Source of the DNA: a virus
Length of the DNA stretch: 64,000 nucleotides
Strand: one strand, 5' to 3'
Virus record (IMG/VR): IMGVR_UViG_3300028837_001424
Coordinates: 48,592-112,591 of that record
The notes under the pieces were generated by a model, which saw only the letters and a list, made by a program, of their open reading frames with translations, searched no databases and had not been told where the DNA came from. The translations under genes were made by a program, and so were the position numbers. This document shows positions 17,532-25,449 of the stretch, piece after piece. Position 1 is the stretch's first letter; each line of letters begins with the position of its first letter.

Positions 17532-18814
17532 TTTTATTTATTAGCGACTTCGATTTTAGGGGTTCGGGATATCTGCACATAGCAACAAGCTTGTGCAACG
17601 AGTTGGCGACTAGACATGGTAGAAAAGTTACTGCGTTGGGCATCGGCTACGACCGATCACAACACAATTGGCCCTTTTCGATTATTCCAGTTCGTCAGCG
17701 CGAATGGGGAAGACATATTCCAGCCATGGTCCATAACTTTATCCAGATGGGGAAATCTGGCCAATGGGATGAAGTAGAGGCGATTGTTGTTGCCTTAGAT
17801 ATTCCTATGCACGCAAATATGATGAAGATCAAAAGGGAAAACACGCCCTATATAGGCATCTTTCCAATTGAGAGCGGCCCTTTATGCAATACATGGGACT
17901 TTGCTATTGGTCACATGAGCGAACGATTAGTGATTAGCGAGTTCGGAAAGCATATGATTGACGAGTCTGGCACCAATACCTCCGTTTATATACCTATAGG
18001 AATCGATTCAACATCTTGGCGTATGCCATCGGATGTAGAAAGGAAGGCAATTAGGAAAGGGATGGGTTATGATGAAGATCAGTTTGTGGTTCTGACGGTT
18101 GCCGATAATCAAGAGCGCAAAAACTTGAGCATAGCGGCAGATGTTATAGAGCGCCTCAAAAAACATTTAAACGTGAGGTGGTCGTTGGTGACTCGAATCA
18201 ACTGTCCAGTAGGCTGGAAGCTCGACGATCTCATGCATCAATTCGACATAATTGATCAAGTAGATAAATATGATAAGGGACTGGCGTTTGATCGGCTATG
18301 GATGCTATATGCTTCAGCAGACGCATTCCTGTTGACGAGCAAGGCCGAGGGGCTTTGTTTACCAATCCTAGAAGCAATGGCAACTGGGTTGCCAGTTGTG
18401 GCAACCTCTTGTACCGCAATTCCCGAACACATTTGGGAAGATCCTGATTGGAGTCGCTGTAGTGATGGTATCTGGCACAAAGGAAAGCCACGAGGCCGAA
18501 GAGGCTATGGTTTGAACGTGGAATACACAACTATTGATCCTTGGGGTAACTCCGTTAGAAGCTTTCCAGATCCCAAGCACGCCGTAAAATTGCTAAGGAA
18601 GATCGCCAAGATGAAGCCGTCTCAAAAGCAGGATTTCATTCAACCAGGTAGGGACTATGCCGTTGGTCGAACTTGGCAACGAGCAGGAAATGTACTGGAA
18701 GAGACGCTCAAACGGGTGATCAAAAAGGCGCAACCAAAAGATGAGCCTGGAACTGTGATACCATCATCACAGCCAAGGGTGATACCCGAAATAACAGAGG
18801 AGAATTCGGTATGA
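17528..18814 (+). CDS. Glycosyltransferase family 4 (GT-B)
   Basis: NQERKN, LYASADAFLLTSKAEGLCLPILEAMATGLPVV. Confidence 0.85.
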   Translation: MILFISDFDFRGSGYLHIATSLCNELATRHGRKVTALGIGYDRSQHNWPFSIIPVRQREWGRHIPAMVHNFIQMGKSGQWDEVEAIVVALDIPMHANMMKIKRENTPYIGIFPIESGPLCNTWDFAIGHMSERLVISEFGKHMIDESGTNTSVYIPIGIDSTSWRMPSDVERKAIRKGMGYDEDQFVVLTVADNQERKNLSIAADVIERLKKHLNVRWSLVTRINCPVGWKLDDLMHQFDIIDQVDKYDKGLAFDRLWMLYASADAFLLTSKAEGLCLPILEAMATGLPVVATSCTAIPEHIWEDPDWSRCSDGIWHKGKPRGRRGYGLNVEYTTIDPWGNSVRSFPDPKHAVKLLRKIAKMKPSQKQDFIQPGRDYAVGRTWQRAGNVLEETLKRVIKKAQPKDEPGTVIPSSQPRVIPEITEENSV

Positions 18815-19710
18815 GCAAGCGCACAAGGGCAAGAAAGCCAAAACAGGGAAGAGCAAGAAAGAAACAAGGACCAGCGCCGAAAACATTGGTTGATATCTGT
18901 ATGCTGGTCTTTGGTGAGTGGGGGTTACTCTCAAAAGCTATCAGGGCGATTCCGGCTGCAGCCGAGGGGCTGAATGCCAGCTATCGAGTCATAGTCGTCG
19001 ATAATGGCACACCTGATTGGGAGACTGAGGAAAAGGAAATTGTAACGGCCAAGGAACAATCAGCACCAATTAAGGAACTGCTTAGGCCACAGGACATCTT
19101 TTTTAGGCTCGATGAAAACAAGGGCTTCCCCGGTGGTTACAACGTCGCGGTCGGCAAGGGGCGCTCGCCGCTTATTCTCATCTTGACTTCAGACGTTTTC
19201 CTGTTTCCTGGCGCGATTACAAAACTTGTTAGCGTTCTGGACGATCCTGAAGTTGGTATCGCAAGCCCGATGTTGCTCTATCCAGCGGACGAATCTCCCC
19301 ACGGGCCTCCTGGTAGCGTGCAGCATGCCGGCATTGGATTCGATATTCGAGGCGATCCCTATCATATTTTCATGGGTTGGCAGCCAGATCATGAGAAGGT
19401 AAATCAGCGTAGAGAGTTACAAGCGGTTACGGGAGCATGTATTCTAACTCGGCGTGCTTTATGGCAAAGAATAGGCGGCTTCTCTGAGCTTTATAATCAG
19501 GGAACATTTGAGGATATGGAGCTTGCATTTGCCATCCGCCAAATGGGCTACAAAATAATTTTCGAGCCAAGCGCGCGAGGTGAACACTATGTTGGAGGTT
19601 CCATAAAACATGGTGCTATGAGGCCGGGTTTTAATCTCGCATTAAATTCAACAATTTTCCGTGGCCGTTGGGCACCATCTCTGAAATGGGATACTTATCG
19701 ATTTTATTGA
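18811..19710 (+). CDS. Glycosyltransferase family 2
   Basis: VVDNG, NKGFPGGYN, VQHAG, AVTGAC, IGGFSELYNQGTFEDMEL. Confidence 0.85.
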   Translation: MSKRTRARKPKQGRARKKQGPAPKTLVDICMLVFGEWGLLSKAIRAIPAAAEGLNASYRVIVVDNGTPDWETEEKEIVTAKEQSAPIKELLRPQDIFFRLDENKGFPGGYNVAVGKGRSPLILILTSDVFLFPGAITKLVSVLDDPEVGIASPMLLYPADESPHGPPGSVQHAGIGFDIRGDPYHIFMGWQPDHEKVNQRRELQAVTGACILTRRALWQRIGGFSELYNQGTFEDMELAFAIRQMGYKIIFEPSARGEHYVGGSIKHGAMRPGFNLALNSTIFRGRWAPSLKWDTYRFY

Positions 19711-19794
19711 CCCTGCCGTGCCAAGCCCAACCTAACATCGCCAGACCTCGCATCGCCAAGCCGTACTCCGCCGCGAACCGCCTAGCCATGCCTC
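19710..19794 (-). ncRNA. Pentamer guide unit A1: 17 x (NN + GGY-type triplet)
   Basis: Minus: GA ggc AT ggc TA ggc GG ttc GC ggc GG agt AC ggc TT ggc GA tgc GA ggt CT ggc GA tgt TA ggt TG ggc TT ggc AC ggc AG ggt. Confidence 0.8.
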
Positions 19795-19807
19795 GTTTAT
19801 AATTCAT

Positions 19808-19872
19808 TCCTAGCCTCGCCACACCGCACCAAACACTGCGCCACCTAGCCGGACACCGCCCCACCTTGCCCT
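19808..19872 (-). ncRNA. Pentamer guide unit A2: 13 x (NN + GGY-type triplet)
   Basis: Minus: AG ggc AA ggt GG ggc GG tgt CC ggc TA ggt GG cgc AG tgt TT ggt GC ggt GT ggc GA ggc TA gga. Confidence 0.8.
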
Positions 19873-19906
19873 AACTGGGGAGAGTTCTCACATACTCTCC
19901 CCAATT
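19873..19906 (-). other. RNA hairpin immediately 5' of array A
   Basis: Minus AATTGGGGAGAGT-atgtgaga-ACTCTCCCCAGTT, 13-bp stem with one U-G wobble that pairs only on the minus strand. Confidence 0.75.
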
Positions 19907-19910
19907 CGAA

Positions 19911-20507
19911 TCAAAGTATCGAAACTTCGAATCGTCCATATGGCCCGCCCTTTGCAGGACGCCAATCGCCAAGACCTACAGCGTTGCCAGCCAGTTCGAG
20001 CCAGTGGATGAGTCTGTCTTTATCCACAAACTCTTCGTTGTACTGTAGCTCGCCTTCAATACTCCAATCTTCTGGAATAATTGGGCGAGTGCGCATGACG
20101 GTAGCCTGCCCGACACGAACGCCAATGCGGAAGCGGAAGCGTTCATCTTTCCACAGTTCCTTGGGATCTTTAGGACCGTCGTATTGAAGGACATAGTGGT
20201 GGTCACAAAATATACCAACACCTGCTGCCTTTCCTTCCTTCTCCATACGAGCGGCGCTACCCCTGCCAGCCAAGGCCGCCTTTAGTAATCGACCTGGAAT
20301 GACAGGCACTCCGTCATTGATGTATAGCGCACCCATAAACTCAAGGCGCGCCATTTCCTCGAAATCCTTCTCAGTCTTCTTGCGCTGAGAACTCACCTTC
20401 TTGAGCTTTTTTGCCCAAGTATTCAATGGATCTGCTAGCTGTCCATTGTGGAGGATCAGGGGGCTGATCCCCGTCAAACGAAATTTCAGAGTCTTCAGGA
20501 CGTTCAT
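19911..20507 (-). CDS. RAMP/Cas7-like protein 1 (putative guide-RNA-binding, Vipr-like), 198 aa
   Basis: RBS GGAG; N-terminal LKFRLTGISPLILH, central IPGRLLKAAL, RTRP..W, C-terminal Gly-rich loop GLGDWRPAKGGPYGRFEV; flanked by pentamer arrays. Confidence 0.75.
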   Translation of the reverse strand: MNVLKTLKFRLTGISPLILHNGQLADPLNTWAKKLKKVSSQRKKTEKDFEEMARLEFMGALYINDGVPVIPGRLLKAALAGRGSAARMEKEGKAAGVGIFCDHHYVLQYDGPKDPKELWKDERFRFRIGVRVGQATVMRTRPIIPEDWSIEGELQYNEEFVDKDRLIHWLELAGNAVGLGDWRPAKGGPYGRFEVSIL

Positions 20508-20805
20508 CGAACTTCTCCAATATCTTAACCGGCAAGCCCGCTTCCACATTGTCCTCTATTATCGTTTCGGCTCGACGTGAGTATCGAAGCCCTCTGATAT
20601 ATGAGGTGAGAAAGTCGTGGCATCGACGGCAGACGGTTATGAGATCCTCACCGATCTCTTCTCCGTATCTTTCGTATGTCTTATGATGCACCTCCAATTC
20701 TTCTACACAAGGAACTCCTGTTAATTCGGCAATGCCGAATATTTTTGAAAGTTGACATTCGTAGTTATCTCTTTCTAGGATTGCTTTTCTTACTAGGTTA
20801 TCCAT
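20371..20805 (-). CDS. HNH endonuclease overlapping the 5' end of the RAMP gene
   Basis: RBS GGAG; RKAILERDNYECQ...C...LEVHHKTY...EDLITVCRRCH. Confidence 0.8.
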   Translation of the reverse strand: MDNLVRKAILERDNYECQLSKIFGIAELTGVPCVEELEVHHKTYERYGEEIGEDLITVCRRCHDFLTSYIRGLRYSRRAETIIEDNVEAGLPVKILEKFDERPEDSEISFDGDQPPDPPQWTASRSIEYLGKKAQEGEFSAQED

Positions 20806-20826
20806 AATGGACTCCGAATAAAGTAA

Positions 20827-20921
20827 TCCTTGCCTCGCCCTGTCGTGCCGGACCTTGCCAAACCGTACCAGACCGCGCCCAAACATACACTGCCAGATCC
20901 AGCCACGCCTGGCCGCGCCTC
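20827..20921 (-). ncRNA. Pentamer guide unit B1: 19 units
   Basis: Plus: tcc TT gcc TC gcc CT gtc GT gcc GG acc TT gcc AA acc GT acc AG acc GC gcc CA aac AT aca CT gcc AG atc CA gcc AC gcc TG gcc GC gcc TC. Confidence 0.8.
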
Positions 20922-20934
20922 GAATATAATTCCT

Positions 20935-21009
20935 TCCCTGCCATGCCCCGCCGTATCCCACCGCGCCAGATCGTGCCTAGCCGGACTTCGCCACGCCAAA
21001 CCACGCCTT
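20935..21009 (-). ncRNA. Pentamer guide unit B2: 15 units
   Basis: Minus NN series: AA GT TT GT GA CC TA AC CT GC GG AC GG AT AG. Confidence 0.8.
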
Positions 21010-21023
21010 GAACATAATTGCTG

Positions 21024-21098
21024 TCCTTGCCGCGCCCCACCAAACCTCTCCATGCAGCACCAAGCCTGGTCGCGCCAAACCTTAACTTACCGTGCCTC
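21024..21098 (-). ncRNA. Pentamer guide unit B3: 15 units
   Basis: Minus NN series: GA AC AA AA TT GC CA TT GC AT GA TT GG GC AA. Confidence 0.8.
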
Positions 21099-21108
21099 GA
21101 AACCAAAA

Positions 21109-21172
21109 TCCCGCCACCCATTATTCGAGGTTGCCCTACCATGAACAAGCCAAGCTGTAATGGGAAGCGGGA
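21109..21172 (-). other. Structured leader stem-loop 5' of array B
   Basis: Minus TCCCGC-tt-CCCATTA ... TAATGGG-tg-GCGGGA with inner TTGTTC/GGGCAA helix. Confidence 0.65.
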
Positions 21173-21227
21173 GTCTGATCTCGATAAAAACAAAAGGCTT
21201 GGTAGATGTCCATGGCAGGTTAGTAGA

Positions 21228-21256
21228 AGTGTACCATAGCGGGCACAGTATGTCAA
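21228..21256 (-). promoter_or_regulatory. Sigma70-type promoter for the array B-HNH-RAMP1-array A operon
   Basis: TTGACA-17 nt-TACACT. Confidence 0.75.
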
Positions 21257-21311
21257 GACCAATGTATTAATCGTTTAAAACAACCAAATTCCATGATATA
21301 ATTATCTTTGC

Positions 21312-21643
21312 ACTTTACCAAACCAATCGCTTGGTGGCTCGAAGAATACCGTTCTACGGGTTAAAAAAGGCACACACGACAGGTGGCGGTGTGGTTCCAG
21401 GCGATGGGAAGCATAAGGGTCGTGGAGATCGGGCGAATGCGCCGCCTTACCGATCGAGCGCGACATCGTTGGTAGCTCAAAACTACATATCCAGTAGACG
21501 ACGATGTGCGGGCAAGATTCCCGCCAGTGACGTTGATGCTAGCTAGGCCAGTTAGCGGAGTCCTGTGGCCCGAATAATGCGACTGATTGCCGAGAGGTTG
21601 GGAGGATTGGCATCCTCCCCTGAGCGATTGTGTTTGGTGAAGT
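21312..21643 (+). ncRNA. Putative ~330-nt structured non-coding RNA of unknown class
   Basis: Ends pair (ACTTTACCAAACCAATCGCTT / GAGCGATTGTGTTTGGTGAAGT), several internal hairpins, extended -10 TGATATAAT at 21294-21302. Confidence 0.6.
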
Positions 21644-21868
21644 CATCAGAAAGGAAATTGGTAAATTTCATGGTAAAATAGATTTGCGAGCGCGCCTCTT
21701 CATTGGGCTATATTTCCCCTAATGATGAGAACTACTCCTGAGTAGCGCTTAGCTCAGGAGGCTAAGCTGGTAACAGCGGACGCGGTAGCCGGTGCCGCTA
21801 TACACAGAGACCGGCAATCACTTTGTAACAAAGGAGGCCAACATGACGAACCTTTAGTGAGGTGAATC

Positions 21869-22072
21869 ATGTCCAAAATTCAGAAAGGCGGTAAGAAAAA
21901 CCGCAAACATGGCCGTGCAGCGCGCAAGCCCAAAACTGCACGGTATCGTATTTCCAATCGTCGAGCAAAAAATAAAACCAAAAGAGTTCTGCGTAGCAGC
22001 GGCAAAAAGGCTGCAAAACAATACGCGCGGGAACAAAACACAACTGGCTATCTACTCAAATTGCTAAGTTGA
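21869..22072 (+). CDS. Small, very basic (K/R-rich) protein
   Basis: RBS GAGGTG; MSKIQKGGKKNRKHGRAARKPK. Confidence 0.6.
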   Translation: MSKIQKGGKKNRKHGRAARKPKTARYRISNRRAKNKTKRVLRSSGKKAAKQYAREQNTTGYLLKLLS

Positions 22073-22139
22073 ACACTGATATGTAACAACTTATTGCACG
22101 ATAACATATTTTATGTTATTGCGAATTTTAATGTTAATG

Positions 22140-22173
22140 AAAAAGCCCCTAAGCTGGAAGCCAGGGACTTTTT
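22140..22173. terminator. Bidirectional intrinsic terminator
   Basis: AAAAAGCCCCTAAGC-tggaa-GCCAGGGACTTTT between convergent units. Confidence 0.6.
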
Positions 22174-22226
22174 CGTATCGCGCCATTGTGCCACTCCGGC
22201 ACGGTTACATTATATCACAACTGGGC

Positions 22227-22664
22227 TTACTCAGCGACGATTGGCTCAGGGAGCATTTCTCCCATAATGTCGGTTTCTATTTCGGCCAATCTATAAGTAT
22301 CCGTATCAGTAAGATGCTCAAAACCGACTCGGTAATACGTCCGCACGTTTTGATTAAAGCTAACGTAGTCAATCCAGCCGCGAATAACGTAATAATCAAG
22401 AGCGTTAGGCTCATTCTTGTATTCCTTCATGTCACATTCGGACCACTCTTGAAATACTGCTCCCGTCTTATCCCATAGAATATCTTCGATGGTCTTTTGA
22501 GAGCGGCTGCATAGCTGACCCTTAATTGACGGGCCTTGATCACTGGTAGTTGCTTTACCATTTAGTAAATAATGTGCGGAAGTGGCAACGGCATATGCCA
22601 GCAGAATGAGAGTAAAAACGGCAACATATCTTAGACATCCTTTACCGGTCGTATTTTTCTTCAT
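22227..22664 (-). CDS. Hypothetical membrane-anchored protein with its own promoter (moron-like)
   Basis: N-terminal TM segment YVAVFTLILLAYAVA; RBS AAGGA. Confidence 0.6.
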   Translation of the reverse strand: MKKNTTGKGCLRYVAVFTLILLAYAVATSAHYLLNGKATTSDQGPSIKGQLCSRSQKTIEDILWDKTGAVFQEWSECDMKEYKNEPNALDYYVIRGWIDYVSFNQNVRTYYRVGFEHLTDTDTYRLAEIETDIMGEMLPEPIVAE

Positions 22665-22687
22665 GGTATTTATCCTTTACTGTGATT

Positions 22688-22732
22688 ATGCTACCCGATA
22701 CGGTACAGTATGTCAAGTTACCTTGGTACTAT
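22688..22732 (-). promoter_or_regulatory. Promoter with conserved upstream box (copy 1)
   Basis: ATAGTACCAAGGTAAC-TTGACA-17-TAGCAT. Confidence 0.65.
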
Positions 22733-22741
22733 CAATAAATA

Positions 22742-22769
22742 AAGAGGCGGGTATATATACCTGCCTCTT
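22742..22769 (-). terminator. Intrinsic terminator ending the RAMP2 operon
   Basis: Minus AAGAGGCAGGTAT/ATACCCGCCTCTT followed by TATTTATT. Confidence 0.55.
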
Positions 22770-22881
22770 GTGCTGTCTGGCAACCAGACGATCACCCACC
22801 ACTGATTGTCAACTTATAAGTTGTCAAATGATGATGGAATGACAACAAATATGTTATCAACAACTAAAGCTCAATGCGATT

Positions 22882-23076
22882 TTAGATCTCATTGATAAAT
22901 TGTCCAAGTCGTTCAACTTTTTCTTGAACAACACTAAAGTTTTTTGCGACACGAGCAACATCTCCAAAAATCAAGCCCCTATTTGCTTTATCAAGAGCTT
23001 TATTAATGTCTTGATACAAGCTCTTGGCAGTCTCGATGGGTTTGTAATTGGCACAGTTCTCACAAGTTTTGTTCAT
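22882..23076 (-). CDS. Small hypothetical protein (CxxC) downstream of array C
   Basis: RBS GGAGGT; MNKTCENCANY. Confidence 0.55.
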   Translation of the reverse strand: MNKTCENCANYKPIETAKSLYQDINKALDKANRGLIFGDVARVAKNFSVVQEKVERLGQFINEI

Positions 23077-23099
23077 CTTAGTTACCTCCGATGTAAAAA

Positions 23100-23234
23100 G
23101 CTTTGCTATGCTTTGCTCTGCTTTGCTGCGCTCTGCTGCGCTGCGCTTTGCTAAGCTTTGCTGGGCTCGGCTACGCTGCGCTTGGCTGCGCTCCGCTTGG
23201 CTAGGCTCGGCTGCGCTCTGCTGCGCTGCGCTAC
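23100..23234 (-). ncRNA. Pentamer array C: 27 x (NN + AGC)
   Basis: Plus strand GCT-NN 27 times with invariant GCT; begins 5 nt after the RAMP2 stop codon; followed by a T tract on minus. Confidence 0.75.
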
Positions 23235-23239
23235 GACCA

Positions 23240-23878
23240 CTATTCCATTGTTACAGGGTTAGTATCCTTCTCAAGAGTTTGCACAGTCCCGATTTCTTTA
23301 ACTTTCTTCCATTCAACTACTTCAAATGAACCAAAGGTTGGTCTATAGGCACATAGCCCTACGAATATACCGCCACGATTAAACCAATCCTCGGCCTTGG
23401 AAATGCTGAAATACTCATTTTCGTAAATGCTTATATTGAATTTTAATGACCAGGGCAAATCCAAAACGGGACGACTCACATTGACCCTAACTTTTGGGTT
23501 TGGCCTTGCCATTCTTGTATCTATGTAAAATGGAGACTTATTCAAATCTTCGGCGACCTCCAGTTTTACATTGCTTTCTTCGTGTTCTTTTCCATTTTGG
23601 AAAGGAATATATGCGGGTTGCACAGAGATACAACCACGGATCACTGGAGACAAAGTTTTCCACTCTTTGCTATTTACAAACATCCGTAGGCAGGAATGGC
23701 TATCTTTACTCGCCAGAAAGCCTTCGATGCTTGAGCTTGGCAAGCAGACGGTTTTGCCGTCGCGGGGGTCGAGGTAAATTTTTTGCTCGACGGGCGTTTC
23801 GTCCTGCGAGACCCATTTGTCGAACATGATCGGCGTCAGACCGTTTAAGACTACTTGTACTTTCACCATGTTTAGCAT
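23240..23878 (-). CDS. RAMP/Cas7-like protein 2 (Vipr-like), 212 aa
   Basis: VQVVLNGLTPIMFD, LPSSSIEGFL, SRPVLDLPWSLKF, GGIFVGLCAYRPTFGSFEV: same motif order as RAMP1. Confidence 0.7.
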   Translation of the reverse strand: MLNMVKVQVVLNGLTPIMFDKWVSQDETPVEQKIYLDPRDGKTVCLPSSSIEGFLASKDSHSCLRMFVNSKEWKTLSPVIRGCISVQPAYIPFQNGKEHEESNVKLEVAEDLNKSPFYIDTRMARPNPKVRVNVSRPVLDLPWSLKFNISIYENEYFSISKAEDWFNRGGIFVGLCAYRPTFGSFEVVEWKKVKEIGTVQTLEKDTNPVTME

Positions 23879-24236
23879 TGTTCTTGCTCCTTTCGCTTAT
23901 AAAGCGGCGCGACTGGTCAACCAATTCTCGGCGCGCATCACTTATTCTTTCTATTAGAGGTTGCTCTTTTCCTTCCAACCAGTTTATTACGAGCTTTAGA
24001 ATTTCATCATCAAGTTTAAATATCTCCCGATCATCAAAGCAATAAGAAGCCAGTAGGCACTTAAGTTCATCTTCGACTTTCAGGGGTTCATCAACTAGGC
24101 TGGCGTGGCATATTGTTAATTTGCTGTTGGCGGCTAAAAAAGCACGATAGCGCCTATTGAAATCGTCGGCTTTTCCTATTTTGAATAGATTATCAAATCC
24201 GAGGTCAAATAGGTAAACGTAGCCGCTAGACATCAT
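23706..24236 (-). CDS. GIY-YIG family (T5orf172/Mug113-like) nuclease overlapping the 5' end of RAMP2
   Basis: GYVYL....LFKIGK..D..RR...VEDEL...REIF; RBS AAGGAG. Confidence 0.75.
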   Translation of the reverse strand: MMSSGYVYLFDLGFDNLFKIGKADDFNRRYRAFLAANSKLTICHASLVDEPLKVEDELKCLLASYCFDDREIFKLDDEILKLVINWLEGKEQPLIERISDARRELVDQSRRFISERSKNNAKHGESTSSLKRSDADHVRQMGLAGRNARRAKNLPRPPRRQNRLLAKLKHRRLSGE

Positions 24237-24256
24237 TCTCCTTCATTTGTAACTTA

Positions 24257-24285
24257 ATCATATCACATACTTGATTATGAGGCAA
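24257..24285 (-). promoter_or_regulatory. Candidate promoter for GIY-YIG-RAMP2-array C operon
   Basis: TTGCCT-17-TATGAT. Confidence 0.5.
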
Positions 24286-24392
24286 ATTTAAATAGACGGT
24301 GCAAATGCTCTACTAACCCATTACAAAAATGGCTAATATAAAGTCGAATTTGAAGTTTTTTCGTCGCGGCAATTTGTGGAGGGATGTGAGAA

Positions 24393-24707
24393 ATGACCGA
24401 GGAACAAGCAACGCAAGGTCCGAAGCTCGATCCGCGCTACAACCCAGCAGTTGAAAATAGCAAGATCAGGATAGAGTTTTCGGGGAATACCGCGCGCATC
24501 GCCGACGTTGGCTTTTACCAAGTTGATTCGTTTCAACTAATTGCGATTGGCGAGTATTTGAAGCAGCGCGGCCTTCAAATGATTGCAATGACTGAGGCTA
24601 AAGTTGCTCAGGACATGATGCGACGTGCCCAAGCCGAAAAAATAGCAGTCGCCGGACGTATTCCTGAGCCTGACGAGCTACCTGCTAACATGAGGCCACC
24701 TGGCTAG
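24393..24707 (+). CDS. Hypothetical protein
   Basis: RBS GGAGG. Confidence 0.55.
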   Translation: MTEEQATQGPKLDPRYNPAVENSKIRIEFSGNTARIADVGFYQVDSFQLIAIGEYLKQRGLQMIAMTEAKVAQDMMRRAQAEKIAVAGRIPEPDELPANMRPPG

Positions 24708-24744: not shown

Positions 24745-25449
24745 ATGGCTGTGGATTGGGTTCATTTGGCACCCGTTATCCTGACAGACGATCTTTTCTT
24801 TAGTTATATTGGAGATCCGGTTTATACGGGTACTTCAACCCAGCGCGATGCTGCTTATTTAATAGCCGAGCAGGAAATGATCCAAGAGATCAAGACGCCA
24901 CTCTTGCCCACGTCGATGACAGGCACTTGGAGGTATCCAGGTATTTATGGTAACCCAACCATCGTTCTACCTTATCAAAAGATTAATACTGTAGACAGCG
25001 TTGCAATTCTATATGGTGGTGGTACTGGTGTTTGCGGCCTACAAAGTGTCGCCGGCTGCCATCGGATTAAGAGTGATACATATGGATACATTGATGCTCA
25101 TTGTATAGGCAATCTTGCAATATTAAATTGCGGTTGCACTATTACCGATATGTATCAGGTTCGAGTAGCTTTTACGGCTGGTTTATCAACTGGCATCGCC
25201 GCTGATGACAAGTCATTACACATGGCATTGGCGATGATCGCAGAGCAATATTTAACAGAGATTATCGATCCTGGTGCTAGTCCGGGCGGGCCAGGCGCAC
25301 CTGGCATTGTAGGTTGGTCATCATTGGGGTACAGCGAGAAAATGAATCCGGCTGCATTAAAGTTGACTCCAATGGGGGCTAGTGGAAGGATGAATGCGGT
25401 TAGACGTATGGTCCGGCACCTTAAAAAGAAACGTGCCCTGAGGTTCTGA
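24745..25449 (+). CDS. Putative head-tail adaptor/connector
   Basis: Position before head-closure and neck genes; S.SSLGYSE-type C-terminal motif. Confidence 0.5.
   Translation: MAVDWVHLAPVILTDDLFFSYIGDPVYTGTSTQRDAAYLIAEQEMIQEIKTPLLPTSMTGTWRYPGIYGNPTIVLPYQKINTVDSVAILYGGGTGVCGLQSVAGCHRIKSDTYGYIDAHCIGNLAILNCGCTITDMYQVRVAFTAGLSTGIAADDKSLHMALAMIAEQYLTEIIDPGASPGGPGAPGIVGWSSLGYSEKMNPAALKLTPMGASGRMNAVRRMVRHLKKKRALRF

What the first reader, a model, noticed from the sequence alone, without database searches (positions are those of the whole stretch)
19486..19794. Guide A1 encodes the catalytic motif of a different allele of the adjacent GT2 gene: possible RNA-guided homing or allele exclusion
Seen: A1 = GA AT TA GG GC GG AC TT GA GA CT GA TA TG TT AC AG, readable as E-I-Y-G-A-G-T-F-E-D-L-D-Y-C-L. 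The neighbouring GT2 gene reads E-L-Y-N-Q-G-T-F-E-D-M-E-L-A-F at 19486-19530; over 17 codons, 9 dinucleotides are identical, including five in a row (GTFED). The array ends exactly at this gene's TGA (19710). Established: GGFDE...ED.DYC is the GT2 catalytic-base region, and free-standing HNH nucleases spread by cutting rival alleles of neighbouring genes. Inference: the cassette attacks the syntenic GT2 of related phages, which could drive its own inheritance. A host GT2 target is also possible.
Basis: partly seen in the sequence, partly recalled or inferred. Interest (0 to 1): 0.9.

Follow-up and report, generated by a model that had tools for sequence, protein, structure and literature searches.

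The report
VIPR guide aimed at rivals' neighbouring gene
The five-base repeat array beside this phage's sugar-transferase gene is a guide RNA of a VIPR system (a CRISPR-like phage weapon described in 2026), and it spells the conserved active-site codons of that gene as related phages carry them, not the phage's own altered copy, so it looks like a weapon with a built-in immune allele.

Summary
A1 (19710-19794, minus strand) is 17 YNNGG units. Its NN string matches the adjacent GT2 gene at 19486-19536 in 9 of 17 dinucleotides (22/34 nt), in codon register.

Alone, that match is no better than shuffled guides give. Against the GT2 family it is decisive:
- A1 hits the homologous site in nearly every relative, up to 29/34 at DNA level and 30/34 inferred from protein. 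The shuffled-guide maximum is 24/34.
- Only the one-base-skip reading works.
- The resident allele is among the worst matches. It has replaced two near-invariant residues (G229N, C239A) inside the footprint.

The locus is a VIPR system (bioRxiv 10.64898/2026.04.26.720920). The RAMP-like protein matches PDB 36pp, SUSP1 Vipr, at E 1.8e-29. The HNH gene is a conserved Vipr partner, not a free-standing nuclease.

Related phages have GT2 joined directly to the next gene and carry no vipr, so 19711-24392 is an inserted island. No perfect target was found, and none was found in prokaryote genomes.

Allele-specific attack on relatives is well supported. Cleavage and homing are inferred only. In 80 related VIPR loci, guides resemble flanking genes more often than chance allows. 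This scan has noted the same pattern on other phage DNA.

The parts
18811..19710 (+). GT2 glycosyltransferase, the last gene of the phage's glycan gene block
   Evidence: Pfam PF00535 at 1.7e-9, plus PF13641 and PF13506. The AlphaFold model has pLDDT 92 and a GT-A fold; its nearest solved structures are polypeptide GalNAc-transferases and K4CP.
19486..19536 (+). Resident copy of the A1 target site (ELYNQGTFEDMELAFAI), matching A1 at 22/34 nt
   Evidence: E234 and D235 are invariant in the family. The resident N229 and A239 replace G and C, which are 97-98% conserved.
19710..19794 (-). vrRNA unit A1 (U5): 17 YNNGG repeats, with an AT-rich 3' end overlapping the GT2 stop codon
19808..19872 (-). 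vrRNA unit U4 (13 repeats), which spells the C-terminus of vipr alleles
   Evidence: It matches the resident vipr at 18/26 and the closest foreign alleles at up to 23/26.
19875..19900 (-). 10-bp hairpin between the vipr stop codon and U4
   Evidence: Read directly from the sequence.
19911..20507 (-). vipr1, the Vipr RAMP protein (198 aa)
   Evidence: PDB 36pp 'SUSP1 Vipr protein' at E 1.8e-29 over residues 5-197. phrog_4652 at 2.7e-50. tblastn to phage SUSP1.
20371..20805 (-). HNH accessory gene (vap), overlapping the vipr start by 137 nt
   Evidence: Pfam PF01844 at 1.6e-4 and phrog_119 at 1.7e-8. A homologue lies directly upstream of vipr in 62 of 80 IMG/VR loci. There is a weak match to the HNH of Cas5-HNH Cascade 8yb6.
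20827..21098 (-). Three vrRNA units upstream of HNH: U3 at 20827-20921, U2 at 20935-21009 and U1 at 21024-21098
   Evidence: The antisense reading of U3 is compatible with tyrosine-recombinase box II.
21228..21256 (-). Promoter-like site TTGACA-17-TACACT upstream of the operon
   Evidence: This is a consensus match only.
19711..24392 (.). 4.7-kb island that is absent from related phages
   Evidence: In L007-L010 and others, the GT2 homologue is followed within about 50-120 bp by the homologue of ORF 24393-24707. Five related records contain no vipr, and the positive control on the window's own genome found both vipr genes.
23100..24236 (-). Second, divergent VIPR-like module: a T5orf172 (GIY-YIG-like) gene at 23706-24236, vipr2 at 23240-23878, and 27 NN-AGC units at 23100-23234

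Best explanation
A1 is one of five guide RNAs (vrRNAs) of an HNH-type VIPR system carried on a 4.7-kb island inserted right after the GT2 gene of an uncultured 112.6-kb phage. As published for VIPR, Vipr protomers should coat the GGY triplets and present the NN dinucleotides. These pair with double-stranded DNA while skipping every third base, so the guide reads codon positions 1 and 2.

A1 reads the invariant Y-G-x-G-T-F-E-D-x-[DE]-Y-C-F codons around the ED motif of GT2 as they stand in related phages that lack the island. The resident gene has changed four residues in the footprint (N229, Q230, L238, A239) and falls to 65% identity, below the 80% level used in the VIPR papers to call targets.

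The likely effect is allele-specific interference with co-infecting relatives. The filament binds inside their late head-to-neck operon, and the coupled HNH probably cuts there. The resident genome is spared.

Shown: family membership, the reading rule, the target family, island absence in relatives, and the poor self-match. Inferred: expression, binding at 76-88% identity, cleavage, and any fitness effect.
For: - The Vipr protein matches the solved SUSP1 Vipr.
- YNNGG arrays lie on both sides of the genes.
- The HNH-vipr pairing is conserved in 62 of 80 loci.
- A1 finds the homologous GT2 site in 24 of the 26 loci scanned: 29/34 in L016, 28/34 in L006, 27/34 in L007 and L011. Only skip 1 works, and the shuffled maximum is 24.
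- Across 119 GT2 homologues the median is 26/34, 23 reach at least 28/34, and the best two reach 30/34. The resident copy scores 22/34 at DNA level, and only 6 of the 119 score lower on the protein-inferred maximum.
- The resident GT2 departs from residues that are at least 95% conserved at only three positions, and two of them lie in the 17-codon footprint (P about 0.05).
- In three near-complete related genomes, A1 is the only guide with an above-null hit.
- Relatives lack both the island and vipr.
- U4 behaves the same way toward vipr alleles: 18/26 against the resident copy and up to 23/26 against foreign ones.
- The published rule, the 80% criterion, active-site targeting and lower self-match scores are described in 10.64898/2026.04.26.720920 and 10.64898/2026.10.15.759431.
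Against: - No perfect or 17/17 target was found in IMG/VR, JGI metagenome contigs or GTDB genomes.
- The three most complete relatives score only 76-79%, just under the published 80% line.
- Mismatch tolerance of VIPR is not reported in the papers read.
- The enrichment of resident substitutions in the footprint is only marginal (P 0.04-0.06).
- Expression and processing of A1 are untested, and its 3' tail is only about 10 nt and unlike the SUSP1 tail.
- The HNH Pfam score is barely above the cut-off.
Confidence: 0.72

Rival explanations
1. RNA-guided homing, an extension of the best explanation. The HNH cuts the rival GT2 about 175-225 bp from the island junction. Repair from the resident genome then copies the immune GT2 allele together with the island into the rival, as with the free-standing Seg and Mob endonucleases of T4.
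For: - The target site lies 175 nt from the island boundary, in a gene convergent with the array.
- Relatives have an empty site.
- The resident allele has diverged.
- Two nuclease-type genes (HNH and T5orf172) sit in the island.
- Among 89 unique guides from related HNH-VIPR loci, 7 have near-matches in their own locus at p<=0.01, where 0.9 are expected (binomial 3e-5). 43% of those lie within 300 nt of the guide, against 3.7% for shuffles. They are mostly in register in long ORFs of core genes: two ORFs without a Pfam family, an M23 peptidase protein and ribonucleotide reductase.
- The precedent for nearby-target homing is in PMC2330249 and PMC2790892.
Against: - No cleavage or gene-conversion data exist.
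- Available relatives are only about 50% identical, so conversion tracts cannot be looked for.
- No island-bearing sibling phage was recovered.
- Other guides (U1-U3) do not point at flanking genes.
- Published VIPR activity is silencing, not cutting.
Confidence: 0.3
2. Silencing only. The A1 filament acts as a transcriptional roadblock in the rival's late operon, upstream of its head-tail connector genes. The HNH has another role, and no DNA is cut or converted.
For: - All experimentally shown VIPR activity is transcriptional repression, on either strand.
- GT2 lies just upstream of neck genes on the same strand in relatives.
Against: - HNH is tightly and conservatively coupled to this Vipr clade.
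- The VIPR authors themselves infer target destruction for nuclease-bearing types.
- Silencing alone does not explain why targets sit next to the cassette.
Confidence: 0.25
3. Self-regulation. A1 binds the phage's own GT2 to tune the glycan or late operon.
For: The resident site is the best skip-1 match of A1 in the phage's own genome.
Against: - 22/34 is what shuffled guides reach.
- The resident allele is among the least matched of 119 homologues.
- Published systems show no self hits at 80% or above.
Confidence: 0.04
4. The target is a GT2 of the bacterial or archaeal host.
For: The host is unknown.
Against: - The core pattern Y-G-A-G-T-F-E-D-x-[DE]-Y-C has no exact match in one genome each of 185,579 prokaryote species, and neither does the 15-unit pattern.
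- The motif family is found on about 100-118-kb phage contigs syntenic with this phage.
Confidence: 0.04

Closest known systems
VIPR systems (Vipr RAMP protein, vrRNA and vap): bioRxiv 10.64898/2026.04.26.720920, 10.64898/2026.04.26.720927 and 10.64898/2026.10.15.759431
   Same: - A Vipr homologue (PDB 36pp).
- YNNGG arrays flanking the genes.
- The one-base-skip, wobble-aligned reading.
- Guides aimed at active-site codons of competitors, at rival vipr genes and at recombinases.
- A self-match lower than the non-self match.
- The HNH accessory fits the nuclease-bearing types; type III is the most likely, but the assignment was not verified.
   Different: - The papers place nuclease-bearing types mainly in host defence islands, whereas this one sits on a phage.
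- The papers do not report guides aimed at the allele of the gene next to the cassette, resident escape substitutions in near-invariant residues, or any homing idea.
- The separators here are 10-17 nt and AT-rich, not a roughly 40-nt pseudoknot tail.
- A second module in the island uses an AGC scaffold.
Free-standing homing endonucleases of T4-like phages (SegB, PMC2330249; MobE, PMC2790892)
   Same: - A nuclease-bearing insert between conserved genes that is absent from relatives.
- A target in the neighbouring gene of relatives, close to the insertion point.
- A resident allele that has diverged at the site.
   Different: - Recognition here would be by an RNA-loaded Vipr filament, not by the nuclease protein.
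- The HNH is not free-standing.
- Neither cleavage nor gene conversion has been shown.
TnpB/IscB RNA-guided homing in IS200/IS605 elements (10.1101/2023.03.14.532601; PMC10690162)
   Same: A mobile element whose own guide RNA directs a nuclease to the element-free version of its site, which favours its inheritance.
   Different: - The proteins are unrelated (RuvC effector versus RAMP filament plus HNH).
- That guide is contiguous.
- That target is the empty insertion site itself rather than a coding motif of a neighbouring gene.
HNH-Cascade (Cas5-HNH type I variants, PDB 8yb6)
   Same: A RAMP-based RNA-guided complex armed with an HNH domain. It is the weak best PDB match of the window's HNH (E 0.025).
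   Different: There the HNH is fused to Cas5 within a multi-subunit Cascade with a CRISPR array. Here it is a separate 144-aa protein beside a single RAMP.

Membership tests
VIPR system | A Vipr protein homologous to characterised Vipr (RAMP family) | tested here: met
   phmmer to PDB 36pp 'SUSP1 Vipr protein' gives E 1.8e-29 over residues 5-197 of 198. tblastn to phage SUSP1 gives 36% identity at full length. phrog_4652 scores 2.7e-50.
VIPR system | Tandem YNNGG repeats with conserved GGY and variable NN, next to vipr | tested here: met
   Five units of 13-19 pentamers with scaffold conformity of 0.90-0.93. Homologous loci in other phages carry the same arrays.
VIPR system | A conserved structured 3' tail after the repeats (SUSP1 clade) | tested here: inconclusive
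   The units end in short AT-rich stretches of 10-17 nt with no obvious pseudoknot. The paper describes other array architectures, such as staggered and ribozyme-separated arrays.
VIPR system | An adjacent accessory (vap) gene acting on DNA | tested here: met
   An HNH gene lies upstream of vipr and overlaps it. A homologue is present in 62 of 80 related loci.
VIPR system | Targets obey the one-base-skip rule with the skips on wobble positions | tested here: met
   For A1 against GT2 loci, skip 1 reaches 29/34 while skips 0, 2 and 3 reach 21-22. All hits are in codon register.
VIPR system | A natural target at 80% NN identity or more, and a self-match below 80% | tested here: met
   30/34 for P0045 and P0036 (inferred from the genetic code), 29/34 for L016 and 28/34 for L006, against 22/34 for the resident copy.
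VIPR system | vrRNAs are expressed, processed and bound by Vipr; the complex binds DNA | not testable with these tools
Free-standing homing endonuclease (intronless homing) | A nuclease gene inserted between conserved genes and absent from relatives | tested here: met
   Synteny in L007-L010 and others. No vipr was found in five related records, and the positive control worked.
Free-standing homing endonuclease (intronless homing) | Protein-only, self-contained recognition by the nuclease | tested here: not met
   The HNH is a conserved partner of vipr, and specificity lies in the guide.
Free-standing homing endonuclease (intronless homing) | Site-specific cleavage of the rival allele and one-way gene conversion in co-infection | not testable with these tools
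   This needs biochemistry and crosses.
GT2 glycosyltransferase (GT-A fold) | A GT-A fold with conserved D-x-D-type and ED motifs | tested here: met
   Pfam PF00535 and PF13641. The model has pLDDT 92 and matches GT-A enzymes. E234 and D235 are invariant in 120 homologues. That D235 is the catalytic base is an analogy to the TED motif of BcsA (PMC4330554) and was not mapped residue by residue here.

The most novel reading that the evidence does not exclude
HNH-armed VIPR cassettes are RNA-guided homing or 'weapon plus immune allele' elements of phages. Their guides read the conserved codons of the genes flanking the cassette as they stand in cassette-free relatives. The nuclease cuts there, and repair drags the cassette and its linked resistant allele into the rival genome.
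Probability: 0.3. Interest if true: 0.85.

Novelty: new variant of a known kind. Interest (0 to 1): 0.6.

Why it matters
VIPR was described only in 2026, as a silencing system aimed at satellites and prophages. In this case a nuclease-linked VIPR on a large environmental phage aims a guide at the active-site codons of the gene next to it, as carried by sibling phages. The carrier's own copy has altered two almost invariant residues.

If the nuclease cuts, this would be a programmable version of phage homing endonucleases. It would link RNA-guided targeting to selfish gene spread in viruses. It would also explain why such cassettes sit in otherwise conserved structural operons, and why odd substitutions appear in conserved motifs of neighbouring genes. 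Finally, it provides a natural set of matched, near-matched and escaped sites for measuring VIPR mismatch tolerance.

Tried and rejected
- Exact gapped-pattern scans for A1 found nothing. These were the full 17 units and 15 units with one free base in IMG/VR, the strict 15 units in JGI metagenomes and GTDB genomes, and 10 units with CTN-Leu in IMG/VR.
- A relaxed pattern gave one metagenome locus, L006, at 28/34.
- The core motif had no match in GTDB genomes.
- A second protein search seeded with the best allele, P0045, gave no better match.
The DNA and context of the best protein hits (P0045, P0036) and of the closest GT2 and Vipr relatives (P0002, P0121) could therefore not be read.
- A single-protein search for Vipr relatives in IMG/VR found none; the alignment search found 409.
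- Guides U1-U3 and the 27-unit second array have no above-null target in the phage's own genome, in 26 GT2 loci or in three whole related genomes.
- An attempt to replicate 'relatives match better than the resident' for locus L059 failed for lack of close relatives.
- A PDB sequence search with the GT2 profile aligned only the N-terminal half, so the ED motif could not be mapped onto a solved catalytic base.
- Rejected: chance resemblance, on the family statistics.
- Rejected: the array as a decayed GT2 fragment, because period 5 cannot arise from period 3 by decay.

Full report
**What is there.** The plus-strand ORF 18811-19710 is a GT2 glycosyltransferase (Pfam PF00535, PF13641). Directly after its stop codon, the minus strand carries an operon:
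- a promoter-like site at 21256-21228
- three pentamer arrays at 21098-20827
- an HNH gene at 20805-20371
- a 198-aa gene at 20507-19911
- a hairpin
- two more arrays at 19872-19808 and 19794-19710

Every array is a run of 13-19 units NN-GGY in strict 5-nt phase.

**What the system is.** The 198-aa protein matches phrog_4652 (2.7e-50). It also matches the solved 'SUSP1 Vipr protein', PDB 36pp, at E 1.8e-29 over almost its whole length. Homologues in wV8/SUSP1-type coliphages, Pseudomonas phage LESphi2, Mycobacterium phage LittleE and Gordonia phage MakoManhole all have NN-GGY arrays beside them.

A literature search found the system described in 2026 as VIPR (10.64898/2026.04.26.720920; structure in 10.64898/2026.04.26.720927; biology in 10.64898/2026.10.15.759431). 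According to those papers:
- Vipr protomers bind the GGY triplets and present the NN dinucleotides.
- The NN dinucleotides pair with double-stranded DNA while skipping every third base.
- The skipped base usually falls on the codon wobble position.
- Natural targets are called at 80% NN identity or more, and self-matches fall below that.

**The HNH gene.** In 62 of 80 IMG/VR loci that encode relatives of this Vipr, a homologue of the HNH lies immediately upstream of vipr. Where the match runs the full length of the HNH, it overlaps the vipr start as it does here. It is thus the accessory (vap) gene of this Vipr clade, not a free-standing endonuclease. Its weak best PDB match is the HNH of Cas5-HNH Cascade. 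The paper mentions HNH vaps and nuclease-bearing types, mainly in host defence islands. I could not verify the type number.

**The self-match.** A1 against 19486-19536 gives 9 of 17 dinucleotides (22/34 nt) in codon register. It is the top skip-1 hit of A1 in the 112.6-kb genome. However, shuffled guides average 21.4 and reach 23, and within the locus p is 0.05. On its own this match is weak.

**The family match.** A search with the GT2 protein returned 120 homologues, many on 100-118-kb contigs. At the aligned site they read E-x-Y-G-[AKL]-G-T-[FY]-E-D-[MIV]-[DE]-Y-C-F. A1, read by the rule, gives [DE]-[IM]-Y-G-A-G-T-[FL]-[DE]-[DE]-L-[DE]-Y-[CW]-[FL]-T-[RS].

All residues other than L, R and S have a single two-base codon prefix, so NN identity can be computed from the proteins. 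The results were:
- The median is 26/34, 23 of 119 homologues reach at least 28/34, and the best two (P0045, P0036) reach 30/34 (88%).
- The resident copy scores 22/34 at DNA level, and only 6 of the 119 score lower on the protein-inferred maximum.
- Its 81%-identical relative P0002 is the lowest of all.
- At DNA level, in 26 loci fetched from IMG/VR and a metagenome, A1 lands on the homologous codons in all but two loci, with 29/34 in L016, 28/34 in L006 and 27/34 in L007 and L011.
- Skips 0, 2 and 3 give only 21-22, and 200 shuffled guides never exceed 24.

This is far beyond chance. It also independently reproduces the one-base-skip rule.

**The resident allele.** Across the whole protein, the resident GT2 departs from residues that are at least 95% conserved at only three places. 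Two of them (G229N, C239A) are inside the 17-codon footprint (hypergeometric P about 0.05). Q230 and L238 add further mismatches. E234 and D235 are invariant. By analogy with the TED motif of BcsA (PMC4330554), this is probably the catalytic-base region. I could not map it residue by residue: the PDB sequence search aligned only the N-terminal half, and the fold search gave a GT-A fold nearest to polypeptide GalNAc-transferases.

**The island.** In related phages (L007-L011, L013, L016, L018, L023, L025) the gene order aminotransferase, GT4, GT4, GT2 is conserved. In the closer ones (L007-L010, L023) the GT2 gene is followed within about 20-120 bp by the homologue of window ORF 24393-24707 or 24745-25449, and then by the connector and neck genes. 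Window 19711-24392 is therefore a 4.7-kb insertion.

Five related records, four of them at least 90% complete, contain no vipr. The same search finds both vipr genes in the window's own genome. In three whole related genomes A1 is the only guide with an above-null hit, 26-27/34 at GT2.

**Host target.** Neither the 15-unit pattern nor the core Y-G-A-G-T-F-E-D-x-[DE]-Y-C pattern has an exact match in one genome each of 185,579 prokaryote species. The host-GT2 alternative has no support.

**Other guides.**
- U4, the unit next to vipr, reads x-K-G-G-P-Y-G-R-F-A-V-E-Y. The resident vipr C-terminus matches it at 18/26. The closest foreign alleles (P0121, 85% identical) could reach 23/26. One resident mismatch is the synonymous switch from AGR to CGN arginine.
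- U3 in antisense is compatible with tyrosine-recombinase box II.
- Both behaviours are described for other VIPR systems.
- U1 and U2 have no target that I could find.

**Is neighbour-targeting general?** I called arrays in the 80 IMG/VR loci (182 arrays). For 89 unique guides in loci of at least 8 kb, I compared the best match within the guide's own locus with 200 shuffles.
- Seven guides reach p<=0.01, against 0.9 expected (binomial 3e-5).
- Their sites are closer to the guide than shuffled hits: 43% lie within 300 nt against 3.7%, Mann-Whitney P 0.005.
- 86% lie in register in long ORFs, against 42% for non-significant guides.
- The best-matched neighbour ORFs I annotated are a head-tail connector gene, an M23 peptidase protein, ribonucleotide reductase and a GH108 lysin. 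Not all of these are among the seven, and two other neighbour ORFs have no Pfam family. Several sites lie near the end of an ORF convergent with the array, as in this window.

The numbers are small and only +/-6 kb was scanned, but the pattern recurs. Earlier notes of this scan describe the same arrangement in other phage genomes. I treat those notes as leads, not evidence. The three VIPR papers do not mention homing or flanking-gene targets.

**Reading.** It is well supported that A1 is a VIPR guide aimed at the conserved ED-motif codons of GT2 alleles of related, island-free phages, and that the resident allele is a poor match. It is an inference that the complex binds sites with 76-88% identity and that the HNH cuts them.

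Homing, meaning repair-driven copying of the island and its linked immune allele, fits four observations: the 175-nt distance between target and island, the empty site in relatives, the nuclease genes and the recurrence. It resembles SegB/MobE homing (PMC2330249, PMC2790892) and TnpB-guided homing (10.1101/2023.03.14.532601). Nothing here shows cleavage or conversion. A silencing-only roadblock upstream of the rivals' neck genes remains a live alternative.

**Limits.** No perfect target was found.

Noticed in passing
window 23100-24236 (minus strand): A second, divergent VIPR-like module lies in the same island. It has a T5orf172 (GIY-YIG-like) gene at 23706-24236, a weak Vipr paralogue at 23240-23878 (phrog_4652 at 8e-7), and one array of 27 perfect NN-AGC units at 23100-23234. 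The AGC scaffold is not among the repeat consensuses listed in the VIPR paper. No target was found.
   Followed up: partly
window 19808-19872 (U4) and 19917-19955: Guide U4 spells the C-terminal K-G-G-P-Y-G-R-F motif of vipr. The resident copy matches at 18/26 and the closest foreign alleles at up to 23/26. One resident mismatch is a synonymous AGR-to-CGN arginine switch. The same arginine switch is seen between a guide and its neighbouring gene in L097.
   Followed up: partly
window 20827-20921 (U3): Read in antisense, U3 gives ...A-[HQ]-[IM]-L-[RS]-[HQ]-T-[CW]-A-S, which is compatible with tyrosine-recombinase box II. No such gene or target was found in the phage or in three related genomes.
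   Followed up: partly
window 20371-20507; L052, L056, L067 and others: The last 45 codons of the HNH gene overlap the first 45 codons of vipr in another frame. The same overlap is seen in many related loci, so it is a conserved arrangement and not an assembly error.
   Followed up: partly
L003 2700-2960 and 4200-4420; L004 1640-1700 and 2980-3150: In Mycobacterium phage LittleE and Gordonia phage MakoManhole the vrRNA arrays are separated by tRNA-like minihelices (an acceptor-like stem plus a T-arm with a UUCGAnU loop). ARAGORN calls no tRNA there. This suggests processing by RNase P or RNase Z. The VIPR paper mentions hammerhead separators, not these.
   Followed up: partly
window 18811-19710: The GT2 model (pLDDT 92) is closest in fold to polypeptide GalNAc-transferases. 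This would fit glycosylation of virion proteins by the glycan gene block.
   Followed up: no
window 21242-21257 and 22702-22717: The promoter-like sequence of the VIPR operon (minus strand CTTGACATACTGT[GA]CC) occurs twice in the island, with 15 of 16 bases shared. The second copy lies upstream of minus-strand ORF 22227-22664, whose function is unknown.
   Followed up: no
L081 6587-6661 and 8874-8918: A guide of another HNH-VIPR locus resembles, at 22/30, an in-frame site in the ribonucleotide reductase large-subunit gene 2.2 kb away. That gene is a classic target of homing elements.
   Followed up: no
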